Below are positions 38,160-45,200 of a stretch of 50,362 bases of DNA, one piece after another; positions within the stretch are counted from its first letter, which is position 1, and every line of letters begins with the position of its first letter. The notes beneath the pieces were generated by a model, which saw only the letters and a program-made list of their open reading frames with translations, did no database searches and was not told where the DNA came from. Source of the stretch: a virus. The position numbers and the translations under genes were made by a program. Location: UHGV virus genome UHGV-0113347; one strand, given 5' to 3'.

Positions 38160-38214
38160 AGTTACGGCCTCACTAACAGGTTTAACAACCTGCTACCCGC
38201 TGTCAAACAGGTGG

Positions 38215-38295
38215 CAGGACGTGACAGGGTTGACAGACTGGCGTTAGTGAAACCAGCAGGCCGAAGCCTCCCCATCACGCCCCACCATAATTCGG
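38215..38295 (-). ncRNA. c4: candidate c4-like antisense RNA (approximate coordinates)
   Basis: Between operator and icd; contains CCAGTCTGTCAACCCTGTCAC complementary to two TTTGACAGC motifs (38199-38208, 38367-38377) on the same transcript. Confidence 0.3.
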
Positions 38296-38472
38296 GCGTA
38301 ACGCGGTTTACGGACACAAAAATACCGCAATATCGGAAATCTGCGGTTGTCCGCACTAACATTCAGGCTGTCAAACCCGGTCGCAGAATTTGCTAAGACG
38401 GTGGAACTATAAGCCTGAACGATTAAAAGGTCAATATGATGCGAAAAGATAGCATTCGCGACTTAAAAATAC

Positions 38473-38489
38473 AAATTTATTAGAGCATT
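38473..38489 (-). promoter_or_regulatory. C1 operator-like site heading the c4-icd-ant unit
   Basis: AATGCTCTAATAAATTT on minus strand, 16/17. Confidence 0.65.
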
Positions 38490-38585
38490 ATTTGTTTAAT
38501 AAATACACAGTTGGATCTAATAACCTCTTTTTTTTAAAGGCGAAAATATGTACCCTAAATGAGTTATAAGGCAGGTGAGGTTATA

Positions 38586-38717
38586 ATGAGAAAACTATTA
38601 CTACCGTTATTATTTATGGCTGGGACTGTTAATGCAGCATCAAGCGTAAAGGAGATTTGTACCGATTATACGAAATACCTTGGGCACGTTTACGCCTTTG
38701 CGATCAATGACTATTAA
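38586..38717 (+). CDS. small secreted peptide (43 aa precursor)
   Basis: ATG after AGGTGAGG; signal peptide MRKLLLPLLFMAGTVNA; AT-rich codon usage. Confidence 0.4.
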   Translation: MRKLLLPLLFMAGTVNAASSVKEICTDYTKYLGHVYAFAINDY

Positions 38718-38738
38718 TCCATGCGTAGGAGTGGATTT

Positions 38739-39056
38739 ATGCTGATTCGTTTGTTTTTAGTGCTTTCCTTTTTAACATTTAATGTTTTTGCTGATGAAGT
38801 TGACTTTTCGAAGGTAGATTGCAATTCAGTGGAAACAAGAAAAGCTCTTATTGAAGAATATAACGAAATATTATCGTCATATGGAATAACAGTGGTTGAT
38901 TCTTATAATCAAAAAACTATTCAGAAAGGAATAAATAAACTGGTCTGTTATGGGGTTTACCAATATTCAGATGGCTCTTCGGAGTATGTTATTTATAAAG
39001 CATACCCAAATAGTCTTGGTGAATTAATTAGTGAGTTTAAACCGATTAATGAGTGA
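38739..39056 (+). CDS. small secreted protein (~105 aa)
   Basis: ATG after AGGAG; signal peptide MLIRLFLVLSFLTFNVFA; ~30% GC. Confidence 0.45.
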   Translation: MLIRLFLVLSFLTFNVFADEVDFSKVDCNSVETRKALIEEYNEILSSYGITVVDSYNQKTIQKGINKLVCYGVYQYSDGSSEYVIYKAYPNSLGELISEFKPINE

Positions 39057-39063
39057 ATGGAAA

Positions 39064-39843
39064 ATGAAATTATTTAATGTAATAACATTTTGTTGTGCTA
39101 TTTTTGCTGGAAGCGCGATAGCTGATAATAAATTGCCAGATTGGCTTTCTACCTCAAAGAAAGATTATGATTTAGTAAGGGCATTCTATTTGTCTGGATT
39201 TGCTTCGAAAGCAATGAACAATCAATTTGGTTATCATTTGCCATCTGAGTTGGTTAATGATTTTAAAGATAATGAATTTGCTGCTCAGGAAAAATGGAAC
39301 ACAATTCCAATTGTGTATGGTGAAATAAAATCCATAAGAATGGTGAATAATAAACCAATTGTAGAATTATTTACTCCAGGGGAAAATGCAACGCCACTAA
39401 ATTATATCAAATTGAAAATATTGGATTCAAAGCAAGACTCTCTGTTAAAACTAAAAAAAGGGGATGATATATATGCAGTGTGCTCCGGTGCTAATTTTAG
39501 CTTAGTGCCAATTCTGAGCAACTGCACTCCAGCAACAGACGTCATTGATGCTGCACTCTCTTTTTCTGGTGAATATATGTTCCCTGCTTTTGATTCTTTT
39601 TCACCTACTAAGCAAAACGTCAAATATATATTCACAAATCAAGATCCTGTTCAGATGATGAATTTTATAGGGTACCTATCCTTAGTCGATACAACGAAGG
39701 ATAAGAATAAAATGGATATGGTTCGTAAGTGTACGCCTTGGAAGCCGGAATGTTCACAACAATTCGTTGATGTAATGGAAGGATTTGATAGCATCATGTA
39801 TAAATATGAGGGAGAATTTAAAAACTACATAGAATTAAAATAG
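39064..39843 (+). CDS. secreted protein (~260 aa), candidate superinfection-exclusion (Sim-like)
   Basis: Signal peptide MKLFNVITFCCAIFAGSAIA; AT-rich; adjacent to the immunity region. Confidence 0.4.
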   Translation: MKLFNVITFCCAIFAGSAIADNKLPDWLSTSKKDYDLVRAFYLSGFASKAMNNQFGYHLPSELVNDFKDNEFAAQEKWNTIPIVYGEIKSIRMVNNKPIVELFTPGENATPLNYIKLKILDSKQDSLLKLKKGDDIYAVCSGANFSLVPILSNCTPATDVIDAALSFSGEYMFPAFDSFSPTKQNVKYIFTNQDPVQMMNFIGYLSLVDTTKDKNKMDMVRKCTPWKPECSQQFVDVMEGFDSIMYKYEGEFKNYIELK

Positions 39844-39878
39844 TGTTTGAAAGGATAGTCAATTTAAGTTTTAACACA

Positions 39879-39907
39879 ACGCCCATTAAAGGGCGTTTTA
39901 TTGTTTT
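39879..39907 (+). terminator. rho-independent terminator
   Basis: acgccc-attaaa-gggcgt then TTTTATTGTTTT. Confidence 0.6.
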
Positions 39908-40001
39908 ACTCAAAACAACCTGATTATGTGATAACCATATCATATCCCTCATTCCACCTACACTGATTACCCCCCAGACAACAATATTCCTACTCAATGA
40001 A

Positions 40002-40021
40002 CAAATGACTACTCGTAGAAT
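40002..40021 (+). promoter_or_regulatory. late-promoter-like element
   Basis: CAAATGACT-actcg-TAGAAT, within an 11-bp inverted repeat CTCGTAGAATC/GATTCTACGAG, ~30 bp before the 40053 start. Confidence 0.5.
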
Positions 40022-40028
40022 CGGTTAA

Positions 40029-40619
<591 letters not shown>

Positions 40620-40629
40620 GGGGGCTGAT

Positions 40630-41241
40630 ATGGGGCTTAATGTTGCTTCAGTAAAGTCTTATGTATCTTCGGCATTAACGACGACATTATTTGGCTCCGG
40701 CGTTGGTGAGCGGGAAGTTGGTAAGCTGACGTCAATCATCATGAACAAAATGCTGTTCGCGCAAGGATGGCAGTTCTCTGTCGAAGTTGATGGACTGGAG
40801 GGGGCAGACTTCTTTGCCAAAGACATTACCTACCACGATTACAGCATCGAATATGAAACGATTAAAATCGGCGGAGGGAATATCCTTCAACCAACGGAGC
40901 GTTCGCCTGGGCAGATAACGATGATGGTCAGGGATACCGTTGATGGCCTCGTTTTGGACTGGTTTAAGACGGCAAAAAGTCGGGTGATCAATCCGGACGG
41001 TACCGGGAATATACCGTCTAAATATTTGCTCAATGTGCGTATTTATCGGTTGCTGTCTTCTGGCTTAACCAAACTGGAAAATGAGATGACGGTATTCCCG
41101 GTCACTACCGGCGATGTCACCTATGCGCGGGATCAGGTTACGGAATTTAAGTCATTCCCAATGACCTTCGCATTGCACAGCACGTTTAACCAATCCTCAA
41201 GTTCTTTGGCTTCCCTTCTGGGCTTTAGTTTTTCTCTTTGA
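40630..41241 (+). CDS. late structural protein (203 aa; possible baseplate/tube-like)
   Basis: ORF in the operon leading to the tape-measure-like gene; no motif recognised. Confidence 0.4.
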   Translation: MGLNVASVKSYVSSALTTTLFGSGVGEREVGKLTSIIMNKMLFAQGWQFSVEVDGLEGADFFAKDITYHDYSIEYETIKIGGGNILQPTERSPGQITMMVRDTVDGLVLDWFKTAKSRVINPDGTGNIPSKYLLNVRIYRLLSSGLTKLENEMTVFPVTTGDVTYARDQVTEFKSFPMTFALHSTFNQSSSSLASLLGFSFSL

Positions 41242-42218: not shown

Positions 42219-45200
42219 ATGGAAAGAAAAAACGCCAACATTGACGATGTTATAAGGACAGTTGAAACCTCCAGCGCAAAAGAGCTGGAAGAGCTTGCTG
42301 GTATCCGGGAAGCTGTTGAAGATTTGAAAGGTGGGCGAGTTGCTACTGTTGATCCTGTCTCTCGCAGCGTGTCGGCATTAAATCACACAATCGAAAATTC
42401 CCGGCCTGACTTTGTGGCCAAAGCGCCATCAGTAGACCCTATTGTTGACGCAATGAAACGGCTTAATTTAGGGGACGTTTCTCGTGTAGTTCAGGAAGAT
42501 GTTGCTCAACAGGAACAGCGGGCCAAATCAACCACACCAAATGGTAAAAAACGACGCAGGAAGGCTATACCAGAGGATGTAAAGGCGCAACGGACCGAAG
42601 CAGCCGAACACGCTCGCGAAATGTTCGGTCAAAAAGGCGGTGCGCAAAAAAGCCAAAACCAACGCGATGCGCGTGGTCGTTTTATTGGAAAGTCAGGGAG
42701 TAAGGCCGCAGCGGAAGATGCCCGTGCTGAACGAGCAGAAAAGGCCAGGCGAAAAGAGGATGATGAGCGTCTAAATGCTGAATCAGGTTTATTAAAAAAA
42801 CTGTCAAAAGTAGCTGAAGGCATAGGTAACCCTTCAGAGACTCGTGCCGTCGATGCGTTAGGTTATGCCGTTGCTGGTCCATTGTGGGCCGCAGGGAAGG
42901 AGCTTGGCGGGATATCAAAAGAAGTTGGTGGATCGCTTAATGGTGCCAGAAAGTCTATTGCCGATGTGATTCGTGGCAATGACGATAACAGCCGTAGAAA
43001 AGGTTTTTTTAGGCGTAAATCGCAAAATAGTGCCGATGTCGTTCAGGTTAACACCCAAAAACGGACGGTTCAGGAACTTCAGGATCAGACCAGCGAAATT
43101 AAAGAGGGCAATGACAAGATTCTCAGCGCCCTTGATCAGATAGCCAAAAACACCGGGAAAAAGAAGGGCGGCTTGCTGTCCAAATTATTTAGCCTGTTAG
43201 GGAAGGGGGCCGGTGGCGTCGCGTCGTTGTTAATGGGGCGTGGCATGCTGAAAAAAGCTGGAGCACTCGCTTTTGGCGCTCTGGGGGCAAAGAAACTTGT
43301 AGGAATGCTACGCGGTGGTGGCAAGAAGACTCTCGCCCATGAAGGCGGAGATTTGGCTGCCCGGGCAGCAGGTAAACTTGGATTAAAGGCAGTTGGTAAA
43401 GGGGCGTTACGCGCAATTCCCCTAGTCGGCACAGTGGCTGGAGGTATTTATGATGCGGTAACCGGTTGGAATGATACAGAAGCGCAACGTCGAGCGTTTG
43501 GGCTTAAATCAGGACAAGATCCATCATTCCAGCAAAAAGCCGCTTATACGTTAGCTAATGTTCTTGATATGGGGGGACTGGTATCTGGTATTAGCAGCGC
43601 CATTGGTGAGGTTCTCAAATCACTTGGATTTGAGGATATCGGCAATATGTTGCAATCATTTTCGACGGAAAGTATTGCCCTGGCCATTGATAGTGGGATT
43701 ACCAACTTAGAAACATATATTTCTAACCTTGGCGACACCATTTCTACCAAGTTCGATGATTACACAGCAAAGATTGGTGATGCTGTTTCAGCATGGTTTA
43801 GCGATACATCTAATAAGCTGCTTGAAAAGCTGGATGCCATCAAGGACTTCTTTACTGTCGATAACCTGAAACAGGTTTTCAGTGATGCAATTGATAGTGC
43901 AATTGATTTCATTCAGAACCCAGGGAAACACATTAAAGAGGCGGCTGGTAATATTTGGGATGGGGTTAAAAATTTACCAGGTAAAGCATTAGATGCAGCG
44001 GTTGATGCCGTTAAAAATACCCCTGCGGCAATGATTGTATCAAAAATACCCAATCCGATCGGCGAGGCTAATGCGAAAGAAATCACTCCAGAGTTAAAAG
44101 CTCCGGTTAATAGCCACCAGGAGACGTCTGATTCTAAAACTGAATCCGATGCCAAACAGAGTAATATTGCTACCCGCGTGATAAATGCGGCACTGGACAC
44201 GGCGAAAGATAGCAATAAAACAGTTAAAGAAACTGCTAATCAGATTATCAATGCAAATGCCGTAGAAACAGGAAATAAAGCAGCACAAACAATTGATGCT
44301 GCCTTGGGCCAGTCTGCTACAGGTAAGGAGGAAGCATTAAGTGCATATGAGATAGATAAACGTCGATTTAACAATGGCAAGGATGTTTCTTTGCCAAAAT
44401 TAAATGCTGCCGGATACCAATGGATTTCTGACAATGCCGATTATTTTGATGAGCTTGAACGTAAGTATGGGCTTGAAAAAGGGATTCTGTCAGCAGTTGC
44501 TTCCGCAGAGTCTAGTGCAGGCCAGAGAACTGGAAATCCAGTAGACAAAAACGGGAACAAACTTTCATCTGCCCTTGGGGCTTTTCAGATCACTAAAGGT
44601 ACAAGGGAGGATCTTGGACTCAGCGATGCTGATGCCATGGATACACGAAAAGCAGCTGATGGTGCCGCCAGATACCTAAGTATCCTGATGAACCGTTATA
44701 ACGGTGATCAGGGTCGTGCAATAGCTGCCTATCATGCTGGTATGGGGCATGTTGATAAGGGGAGAGTAGTCGCCGGTACCGGCGAATATGTTACTCGTGT
44801 CAGAGGGTATCAGCAGATGCTCAATAATGGTGCCGTTTATGGCTCTAAGGTAGATCATAGCGCACCAGCAATTCACGAAAAGATACCTGATAACGCTGTT
44901 ATCGATCAGTCTACTGGCCTGGCGTTTACCCCTGGTGATAGCCCGTTTGAGAAAGGCGGTCTGGTAGACAAAATTGGCAATGCTGTTGGTGTTAACGATC
45001 TGGTCAACAAATTCATGAATGGCCGGGGTATGCGTCGGGAAGTCGTTCAGGGAACGCTCGAAGAACGTGCACGAGGGAAGGGGACCGCAACAGCAGCTGG
45101 CAATGTGTATGTTGATACTCCGATGCCAGTCGAAGAGGCGCGTCCGGTGGCCAGCAACTCAAGTTACTTTGACCAACTCGGCGCACAAATGGGGATTGAT

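What the first reader, a model, noticed from the sequence alone, without database searches (positions are those of the whole stretch)
38490..39907. AT-rich three-gene island of secreted proteins beside the immunity region
38.5-39.9 kb drops to roughly 30% GC against ~50% elsewhere and encodes three consecutive proteins with cleavable signal peptides (43, ~105, ~260 aa), with its own promoter region and terminator. The composition marks it as separately acquired. Position next to the c4/ant region suggests a superinfection-exclusion (Sim-type) function acting in the periplasm, but the products have no motif I recognise.
Basis: partly seen in the sequence, partly recalled or inferred. Interest (0 to 1): 0.45.

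Follow-up and report, generated by a model that had tools for sequence, protein, structure and literature searches.

The report
Phage P1 sim superinfection-exclusion operon

Summary
Window 38490-39907 has 33% GC against 48% elsewhere, the lowest value in the 50 kb. It carries three same-strand ORFs with signal-peptide N-termini and a strong terminator, and it lies next to the C4 RNA/icd/ant immunity region. It is the phage P1 simABC operon: the segment is 100% identical to P1, while the flanks are about 99.5% identical. The "Sim-type exclusion" interpretation is therefore correct because this is Sim itself (Devlin 1982; Kliem & Dreiseikelmann 1989; Maillou & Dreiseikelmann 1990). Novelty: already known.

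Extra anatomy found here:
- The swapped segment is 38488-40000, bounded by the C1 operator Op51 and the late promoter LPsit.
- At least four alternative cassettes occupy this site in P1-like plasmids, almost all encoding exported or membrane proteins.
- P1 simA is the 5' 41-codon remnant of a 163-215-aa gene that is intact in relatives.
- simB and simC travel together and are under purifying selection (dN/dS 0.2-0.34), but evolve faster than the neighbouring tail genes.
- SimC's centre is a divergent PF12869-type OB-fold candidate with conserved cysteine pairs.

SimC's molecular target remains unknown. Both structure models were of low confidence.

The parts
38473..38489 (-). C1 repressor operator Oc4 (former Op51), AAATTTATTAGAGCATT. 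It marks the left edge of the variable cassette. It belongs to the divergent c4-icd-ant promoter region, not to sim itself.
   Evidence: Annotation of NC_005856 transferred by alignment (offset checked). P1/P7 homology ends at 38487.
38488..40000 (+). The whole exchangeable cassette (1513 bp, 33% GC): the segment that is replaced by unrelated cassettes in other P1-like phage-plasmids.
   Evidence: blastn breakpoints against P7 are 38487|38488 and 40000|40001. The same right-hand breakpoint is seen against L005, L006 and L009.
38495..38521 (+). PsimA, a predicted sigma-70 promoter (-35 at 38495-38500, -10 at 38516-38521).
   Evidence: Annotated only as 'predicted' in NC_005856. The consensus scan did not recover it. 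Its function is unverified here.
38586..38717 (+). simA' (43 aa; annotated from 38559 as 52 aa): a signal peptide plus 26 residues. It is the 5' remnant of a longer exported-protein gene (163-215 aa) that is intact in relatives.
   Evidence: PHROG 3933 match: residues 10-50 against profile positions 1-41 of 213. 90-93% identity to the first 41 residues of 163-215-aa proteins in L005, L006 and L009, and 69% to the 179-aa protein in L008. In DNA alignment A2 the P1 TAA stop aligns with a GAA/GAG Glu codon of the full-length genes. A GGTGAGG Shine-Dalgarno sequence lies ahead of 38586.
38739..39056 (+). simB (105 aa; annotated from 38721 as 111 aa): an 18-aa signal peptide (VFA/D) plus an 87-aa mature domain with two conserved Cys.
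   Evidence: AGGAG lies 7 nt ahead of 38739. PGAP calls the 105-aa form in four plasmids. PHROG 14329, E 3e-71. Homologues: 61% in L008, 92% in L009, 52% as the N-terminal domain of D6 orf79. Invariant Cys70 (C28 conserved in 5 of 6 rows) in alignment A3. dN/dS 0.20.
39064..39843 (+). simC (= sim; 259 aa; annotated from 39049 as 264 aa): the exclusion protein. It has a 20-aa signal peptide (AIA/D) and a soluble mature protein of about 239 aa.
   Evidence: 100% protein identity to P1 SimC and 99.6% to 'sim region ORF 2' of M34382. The largest protein cluster (777 members) is the 259-aa form. No membrane-spanning segment after the signal peptide. dN/dS 0.31-0.34.
39247..39525 (+). Central domain of SimC (residues 67-159 in the 264-aa numbering): a candidate OB-fold of the PF12869 (tRNA_anti-like) type. 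It contains the conserved Cys pair in the motifs AVCSG and SNCT.
   Evidence: PF12869 at E 1.1e-3, 19.0 bits, below the 23.5-bit cut-off. Four of 8 SimC relatives match PF12869, best E 2e-14. The Cys columns are conserved in alignment A1. Weak Foldseek hits to the low-confidence model are nearly all OB-fold proteins.
39878..39907 (+). Intrinsic terminator of the sim operon: a 7-bp GC-rich stem, a 6-nt loop and a T run.
   Evidence: Terminator scan. RNA fold -12.7 kcal/mol, z = -3.44.
38207..38292 (-). C4 antisense RNA of the immI region (neighbour, not part of sim). It confirms the 'beside the immunity region' statement.
   Evidence: Rfam RF01695, 68.8 bits, E 1e-12. Also annotated in the P1 record.

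Best explanation
This is the simA'-simB-simC operon of a P1-type phage-plasmid, the classical 'superimmunity' locus. It is transcribed away from the c4-icd-ant immunity operon and ends at the hairpin at 39878-39907. SimC is exported through the Sec pathway, loses a 20-residue signal peptide and stays as a soluble periplasmic protein. There it blocks a superinfecting P1 after adsorption, at the step where DNA crosses the envelope into the cytoplasm. That much is shown in the literature. The following is inferred here. Mature SimC consists of an N-terminal helical segment, a disulfide-stabilised OB-fold-like barrel and a C-terminal helical domain with a second Cys pair. It most likely acts by binding a component of the ejecting tail tip, with the Sit transglycosylase/tape-measure-like protein as the prime candidate, rather than by masking the receptor. 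SimB is a small periplasmic partner that is co-inherited with SimC. P1 simA is a truncated relic and probably dispensable.
For: Identity: 99.9% over 38300-40050 to four P1 records, and a match to the original sim sequence M34382. SimB and SimC proteins are 100% identical, and there are no differences from P1 anywhere in 38397-40919. [quoted passage not shown] Sim is listed with T4 Imm and P22 SieA as blocking DNA translocation (PMC9952470). The simC 'superinfection exclusion gene' is attributed to Maillou & Dreiseikelmann 1990, 'purification of the processed protein' (PMC2409434). simA, simB and simC are non-essential for plaque formation by CRISPRi (PMC10695390), as expected for an accessory gene. 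Export: signal-peptide features on all three products and no later membrane-spanning segment. Conserved Cys pairs fit an oxidising compartment. simB-simC linkage: the same order and the same locus occur in a divergent P1-like plasmid at 61% and 40% identity and in L009. Both genes are under purifying selection. OB-fold lead.
Against: Nothing functional was tested here. From my own recollection of Devlin 1982, the Sim phenotype was described for multicopy clones, so its strength from a single-copy prophage is uncertain. SimC's target is unknown. The proposed binding to Sit or the tail tip is by analogy only. The OB-fold assignment is below Pfam's threshold (19.0 vs 23.5 bits), and the AlphaFold models are of low confidence (pLDDT 56.7 for SimC, 47.8 for SimB). 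PsimA is only a predicted promoter. No role has ever been shown for SimB.
Confidence: 0.9

Rival explanations
1. The cassette is a general envelope 'moron'. Its natural role in a single-copy prophage is something other than self-exclusion, such as altering envelope properties, excluding unrelated phages or plasmids, or host fitness. On this view the Sim phenotype is mainly an over-expression effect.
For: The same site in related phage-plasmids holds unrelated cassettes of exported or membrane proteins: P7 has a lipoprotein with weak TraT similarity plus DUF5384; others have a full-length SimA protein with a YfjT-like protein, or an SH3-domain protein. The locus is AT-rich, a composition typically silenced by H-NS (general knowledge). 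The sim genes are dispensable for plaque formation.
Against: Published genetics names sim as the P1 exclusion determinant. simB and simC are maintained by purifying selection and stay linked at this locus across about 60% protein divergence, which fits a specific function tied to P1-type phages. The simBC module is confined to P1-like plasmids: 182 of 183 places in E. coli genomes are on plasmids.
Confidence: 0.1
2. SimC works by binding nucleic acid: its OB-fold captures the incoming DNA end in the periplasm, rather than binding a phage or host protein.
For: The nearest Pfam family is PF12869, which is described as a nucleic-acid-binding OB-fold and has been linked to DNA binding in C. difficile TcdC. 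The weak structural neighbours are SSB and tRNA-synthetase OB domains.
Against: In contractile-tail phages the DNA is normally shielded by the tail tube and tape-measure conduit while it crosses the periplasm (general knowledge). OB-folds also bind proteins and sugars. The match is sub-threshold and the model is of low confidence.
Confidence: 0.1
3. All three products are required parts of one complex, with SimA acting as a genuine small accessory peptide as the P1 annotation suggests.
For: The P1 record calls simA and simB a 'putative superimmunity accessory function'. The three ORFs are tightly packed in one operon.
Against: P1 SimA is only the first 41 residues of a 163-215-aa protein, ended by a stop that aligns with a Glu codon. 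That stop is itself polymorphic: it is AAA in Klebsiella p160070-MCR, which gives a fused ORF. In L009, simB-simC sit upstream of a full-length simA, so the order is not conserved.
Confidence: 0.07

Closest known systems
Phage P1 sim region (simA, simB, simC; NC_005856 46786-48070; M34382)
   Same: It is the same locus. The cassette has identical nucleotide sequence, SimB and SimC are identical in protein, and the neighbours are the same: Op51/c4/icd/ant on one side and LPsit/pmgC/tub/pmgB/sit on the other.
   Different: The window is a P1 variant, not the reference. The flanks differ by about 0.5% and there are two substitutions in the c4 a1b1 element. My preferred start codons (43, 105 and 259 aa) are shorter than those in the 2004 annotation (52, 111 and 264 aa).
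Ltp lipoprotein of Streptococcus thermophilus phage TP-J34
   Same: It is a prophage-encoded, exported protein that blocks DNA injection after normal adsorption (abstract of PMC3952083). From memory, it acts on the tape-measure protein. This is the mechanistic model I favour for SimC.
   Different: There is no sequence relationship. Ltp is a membrane-anchored lipoprotein of a Gram-positive host, whereas SimC has no lipobox and is predicted to be soluble in the periplasm.
T4 Imm / Sp and P22 SieA
   Same: They act at the same stage, preventing phage DNA translocation into the cytoplasm (PMC9952470; PMC10883804 abstract).
   Different: These are integral inner-membrane proteins. SimC has only a cleavable signal peptide. 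No Pfam, NCBIfam or PADLOC similarity was found.
PF12869 (tRNA_anti-like) OB-fold proteins, e.g. the extracytoplasmic domain of C. difficile TcdC
   Same: SimC residues 67-159 align to profile positions 52-144 of 146. Relatives reached from SimC pass the family threshold. The motif is shared: D[FY]xxNExxAxxK[WY] followed by beta strands and a Cys pair.
   Different: SimC itself scores below the gathering cut-off. It carries extra N- and C-terminal helical regions found only in the small SimC family. No function is established for this Pfam family in the periplasm.
P7 upf50.5/upf50.0 cassette and the 'SimA-domain protein' + YfjT-like cassettes of other P1-like plasmids
   Same: They occupy exactly the same site between Op51 and LPsit and also encode signal-peptide or membrane proteins.
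   Different: Their proteins are unrelated to SimB and SimC. P7's lipoprotein has a weak TraT-like match (E 7e-5, below cut-off). Their functions are untested.

Membership tests
Phage P1 sim (superimmunity / superinfection exclusion) operon | Sequence identity to the P1 sim region and to SimC | tested here: met
   99.9% over 1751 nt to NC_005856, AF234172, AF234173 and OP279344. SimC and SimB are 100% identical in protein. There are no differences from P1 in 38397-40919.
Phage P1 sim (superimmunity / superinfection exclusion) operon | Location between the immI region (Op51, c4, icd, ant) and the late tail operon (LPsit, pmgC, tub, pmgB, sit) | tested here: met
   Annotation transfer, Rfam C4 and a1b1 hits and the ORF list.
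Phage P1 sim (superimmunity / superinfection exclusion) operon | SimC is made as a precursor with a cleavable N-terminal signal sequence | tested here: met
   Met at sequence level: n-, h- and c-regions with an AIA/D site and no later membrane-spanning segment. Processing is reported by Maillou & Dreiseikelmann 1990 (title cited). The cleavage itself cannot be tested here.
Phage P1 sim (superimmunity / superinfection exclusion) operon | Confers exclusion of superinfecting P1 after adsorption | not testable with these tools
   Literature only.
Pfam PF12869 tRNA_anti-like OB-fold (SimC residues 67-159) | Score at or above the curated gathering threshold (23.5 bits) | tested here: not met
   19.0 bits, E 1.1e-3.
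Pfam PF12869 tRNA_anti-like OB-fold (SimC residues 67-159) | Homologues reached from SimC belong to the family (transitive homology) | tested here: met
   phmmer hits P0012 (E 1e-8), P0014 (6e-5) and P0015 (8e-4). P0014 and P0015 carry precomputed PF12869 hits. Four of 8 alignment members match, best E 2e-14.
Pfam PF12869 tRNA_anti-like OB-fold (SimC residues 67-159) | Five-stranded beta-barrel with a helix between strands 3 and 4 | tested here: inconclusive
   The AF2 model shows strands at 88-99, 102-108, 140-146 and 149-154 and a helix at 126-132, but pLDDT is below 50 there. Foldseek gave no hit at E <= 1e-3; its weak top hits are OB-fold proteins. The PDB profile search found nothing.
Known membrane-protein exclusion systems (T4 Imm/Sp, P22 SieA) and catalogued defence systems | Sequence similarity to a family model | tested here: not met
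   PADLOC gave 0 families for all three proteins. There is no relevant Pfam or NCBIfam hit.
Known membrane-protein exclusion systems (T4 Imm/Sp, P22 SieA) and catalogued defence systems | Integral membrane topology | tested here: not met
   The highest 19-residue hydropathy after the signal peptide is 1.25 for SimC, 0.45 for SimB and -0.3 for SimA.
Lipoprotein-type exclusion proteins (T5 Llp, F TraT, TP-J34 Ltp) | Lipobox with an invariant Cys at +1 of the mature protein | tested here: not met
   The predicted cleavage sites are VNA/A, VFA/D and AIA/D. No L-[AS]-[GA]-C motif is present (sequence).

The most novel reading that the evidence does not exclude
The Op51-LPsit junction of P1-like phage-plasmids is a dedicated swap site. 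At least four unrelated cassettes of envelope-targeted proteins compete for it: simA'BC, a TraT-like lipoprotein with DUF5384, full-length SimA with a YfjT-like protein, and a SimA-domain protein with an SH3-domain protein. Each may set a different entry-exclusion specificity. Within the site, SimC would be a periplasmic OB-fold protein that, together with SimB, captures the ejecting tail tip or Sit protein. P1's textbook 'simA' would be a dead 5' fragment of a larger exported protein.
Probability: 0.35. Interest if true: 0.4.

Novelty: already known. Interest (0 to 1): 0.15.

Why it matters
As a scan result it only re-identifies a locus described in 1982-1990 and annotated in the 2004 P1 genome, so it adds no new biology in itself. 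The residual value is that the molecular target of Sim has never been determined. Four results from this work give concrete handles for solving that old mechanism and for reading exclusion compatibility among the P1-like plasmids that spread resistance genes:
- the OB-fold lead in SimC;
- the conserved simB-simC pairing;
- the recognition that P1 simA is a remnant;
- the map of alternative cassettes at the same site.

Tried and rejected
- **Family libraries.** Pfam, NCBIfam and PADLOC gave no significant family for any of the three proteins. PHROGs gave only families of unknown function.
- **Homologue searches.** The 5.8-billion-protein search found only near-identical SimC and SimB sequences. 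An exhaustive HMMER search of 1.84 billion representatives found 15 hits, most of them fragments. A profile search added nothing beyond PF12869-bearing proteins.
- **Structure.** AlphaFold2 of SimC with 8 sequences reached pLDDT 56.7, and SimB with 7 sequences reached 47.8. Both are too poor for fold assignment. Foldseek of the SimC model against the PDB gave no hit at E <= 1e-3, so no further fold searches were run. A PDB profile search gave one meaningless hit.
- **SimB-SimC fusion in D6.** D6 orf79 carries a SimB domain, but its C-terminal 160 residues are unrelated to SimC.
- **Relatedness of the P7 cassette.** Its proteins are not related to the Sim proteins.
- **Literature.** The P1 genome paper (PMC523184) and the three primary sim papers are not held in the library. 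Details of those experiments therefore rest on citing papers and on my own recollection.
- **Adsorption block or receptor masking.** Rejected as a mechanism, because the literature places the block at DNA entry.
Full report

Yes. The interval 38490-39907 has 33.2% GC, against 48.1% for the rest of the 50,362-bp window. It is the lowest of all 1,418-bp windows: the minimum starts at 38451, the mean is 47.6% and the SD is 3.0%. The drop begins near 38400 and ends near 40000.

Three consecutive + strand ORFs fill the interval. Each begins with a basic n-region, a strongly hydrophobic core and a small-x-small site (VNA/A, VFA/D, AIA/D). None has a later membrane-spanning segment.

A hairpin at 39878-39897 followed by a T run is a convincing intrinsic terminator (-12.7 kcal/mol, z = -3.4). 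The "own promoter" is the weakest element. It exists only as a predicted feature in the P1 record, and the consensus scan found no excess of promoter-like sites. The immunity region is indeed adjacent: Rfam finds the C4 antisense RNA at 38207-38292(-) and its a1b1 target element at 38360-38412(-), with icd and ant1/ant2 beyond.

**2. What is it?**

Megablast against phage records gives 99.9% identity over 38300-40050 to four phage P1 genomes, and a match to M34382, "Bacteriophage P1 sim region proteins". The annotated features under the match are simA, simB and simC, labelled "superimmunity". The only two differences from NC_005856 in that stretch lie at 38376 and 38396, outside the cassette. 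Over 7.75 kb the window is 99.46% identical to P1, with no difference anywhere in 38397-40919. SimB and SimC are 100% identical in protein. The window is therefore a P1-type phage-plasmid, and the finding is the sim operon.

**3. What is known about it?**

Papers in the library state the following:
- Superinfection exclusion in P1 is conferred by sim (PMC9177967).
- Sim may prevent superinfecting phages from injecting DNA into the cytoplasm (PMC8546580).
- Sim is grouped with T4 Imm and P22 SieA as a blocker of DNA translocation (PMC9952470).
- simC is the exclusion gene whose processed product was purified (Maillou & Dreiseikelmann 1990, cited in PMC2409434).
- simA, simB and simC are non-essential for plaque formation in a CRISPRi screen (PMC10695390).
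- simABC is already listed among eight low-GC variable regions of P1-like phage-plasmids (PMC9603915).

The primary papers and the 2004 P1 genome paper are not held. Three further points come from my own memory of those papers: adsorption is normal, transfection bypasses the block, and processing depends on SecA.

**4. Anatomy beyond the annotation**

*(a) Boundaries.* Homology to P7 stops at 38487, the end of the C1 operator Op51 (38473-38489), and resumes at 40001, the late promoter LPsit. The exchangeable unit is therefore 38488-40000.

*(b) Alternative cassettes.* P7 carries instead a glycine-zipper lipoprotein (weak TraT-like match, E 7e-5, below cut-off) and a DUF5384 protein, both with signal peptides. 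Other IncY plasmids carry a 163-215-aa "SimA-domain protein" followed either by a YfjT/YkfB-like secreted protein or by a secreted protein plus a 394-aa SH3-domain protein. In PLSDB the c4/icd flank occurs at >=80% coverage in 452 records. The counts by cassette type are:

| Cassette type | Records (>=80% coverage) |
|---|---|
| P7-type | 166 |
| P1-type sim | 137 |
| SimA-full/YfjT-type | 81 |
| SH3-type | 20 (plus 42 diverged or partial matches) |

In complete E. coli genomes the simBC module is present at >=80% coverage in 128 of 5,426 genomes, and 182 of 183 places are on plasmids.

*(c) simA is a remnant.*
- P1 SimA matches only positions 1-41 of a 213-position PHROG profile.
- It is 90-93% identical to the first 41 residues of the 163-215-aa proteins in L005, L006 and L009.
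- DNA homology runs to about 38725, and the P1 TAA stop (38715-38717) aligns with a Glu codon of the full-length genes.
- The annotated simB start (ATG 38721) is the next internal Met codon of that ancestral gene.
- simA' and the annotated simB are in one frame separated by that single stop. In Klebsiella plasmid p160070-MCR the stop is AAA, and a fused 166-aa ORF is annotated.
- A divergent P1-like plasmid (L008, about 70% nucleotide identity in the flanks) has the presumed ancestral layout at the same site: full-length simA (179 aa), simB (108 aa, 61% identity) and simC (264 aa, 40% identity).
- In L009 the order is simB, simC, full-length simA, then a YfjT-like gene.

*(d) simB and simC are real, linked genes.* dN/dS is 0.20 for simB and 0.31-0.34 for simC, against 0.05-0.12 for pmgC, tub and pmgB. 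Against L009, dS for the cassette (0.23) exceeds that of the flanks (0.01-0.07), which indicates a separate history. The SimB domain also occurs as the N-terminal domain of D6 orf79, fused to an unrelated C-terminus.

*(e) SimC family and fold.*
- SimC is very rare. Only 15 representatives reach E <= 1e-3 among 1.84 billion proteins, and most are fragments.
- Residues 67-159 match Pfam PF12869 (tRNA_anti-like OB-fold) at 19.0 bits, below the 23.5-bit cut-off.
- The distant relatives P0012, P0014 and P0015 do belong to that family. Four of the 8 alignment members match it, best E 2e-14.
- Two Cys pairs are conserved: AVCSG...SNCT within the barrel, and CTPWKPEC in the C-terminal helical region.
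- The AlphaFold model is of low confidence (pLDDT 56.7), although its strand-helix-strand order fits an OB-fold.
- Foldseek gave no significant hit. Its weak top hits were almost all OB-fold proteins.
- The SimB model was also poor (pLDDT 47.8), showing one helix packed against three strands.

**5. Mechanism**

*Shown in the literature:* SimC is an exported, processed protein that excludes superinfecting P1 at the DNA-entry step.

*Shown here:*
- the sequence features for export;
- the absence of a membrane anchor or lipobox;
- the conserved cysteines;
- the linkage and selective constraint of simB and simC;
- the truncated state of simA.

*Inferred:* SimC is a soluble periplasmic protein built on an OB-like barrel. 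It binds a component exposed during ejection, most plausibly the Sit transglycosylase/tape-measure-like protein encoded about 2.4 kb downstream, by analogy with Ltp of TP-J34. SimB assists or stabilises it.

*Rivals:*
- The natural role is not self-exclusion at single copy (confidence 0.10).
- SimC binds the DNA itself through its OB-fold (0.10).
- SimA is a true third component (0.07).

**6. Comparison and verdict**

The locus is a member of the P1 sim operon, and every testable defining feature is met. It is not a member of any catalogued defence family and shows no similarity to Imm, Sp or SieA. The resemblance to those, and to Ltp, is functional only. SimC's membership of PF12869 is probable by transitive homology but fails the curated threshold, so it is recorded as a lead.

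Novelty is "already known" and interest is low (0.15). The remaining open question is the 35-year-old one of Sim's molecular target, for which the domain, linkage and allele data above provide starting points.

Noticed in passing
window 38376 and 38396: These are the only two differences from the P1 reference in 38300-40050: C for A at 38376 and A for C at 38396. Both fall inside the Rfam c4-a1b1 element (38360-38412, - strand), the upstream target sites of the C4 antisense RNA. Whether they affect C4 pairing was not examined.
   Followed up: partly
window 42251-42587 (start of sit): A patch of 17 substitutions in about 340 nt (about 5%) relative to P1, against about 0.2-0.5% elsewhere, gives 6 amino-acid changes in the first 108 residues of the Sit transglycosylase/tape-measure-like protein. 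It looks like a recombination patch. It may be relevant if Sit is the target of Sim.
   Followed up: partly
window 38715-38741: simA' and the annotated simB start are in the same reading frame and are separated by a single TAA. In Klebsiella pneumoniae plasmid p160070-MCR (L010) the codon is AAA, and a 166-aa simA'-simB fusion ORF is annotated.
   Followed up: yes
window 39879-39923: A 45-bp stretch that covers the sim terminator hairpin and its 3' flank recurs at 100% identity in P1-like plasmids that lack simB and simC (hits H60-H64 and H107-H108). This suggests the terminator is a separate small module shared between cassette types.
   Followed up: no
L003 3973-4494 (phage P7 upf50.5, the positional allele of sim): The P7 lipoprotein at the sim site has a sub-threshold match to TraT, the F-plasmid surface-exclusion lipoprotein (E 7e-5, 23.1 bits against a 31-bit cut-off), and to glycine-zipper domains. 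RefSeq labels it 'DNA methyltransferase', which looks like a mis-annotation.
   Followed up: partly
L007 2848-3744 (phage D6 orf79): This 298-aa protein has a signal-peptide-like N-terminus, a SimB domain (52% identity) and an unrelated 160-aa C-terminal region. It lies about 0.9 kb from a second icd/ant-like module of D6.
   Followed up: partly
window 39250-39330 and 38718 region (simC and the simA/simB junction): A published in-silico search reports two adjacent ArgR-box-like sequences inside simC and a third at the simA/simB junction of P1. None has been tested for binding (PMC2409434). I did not re-scan for them.
   Followed up: no
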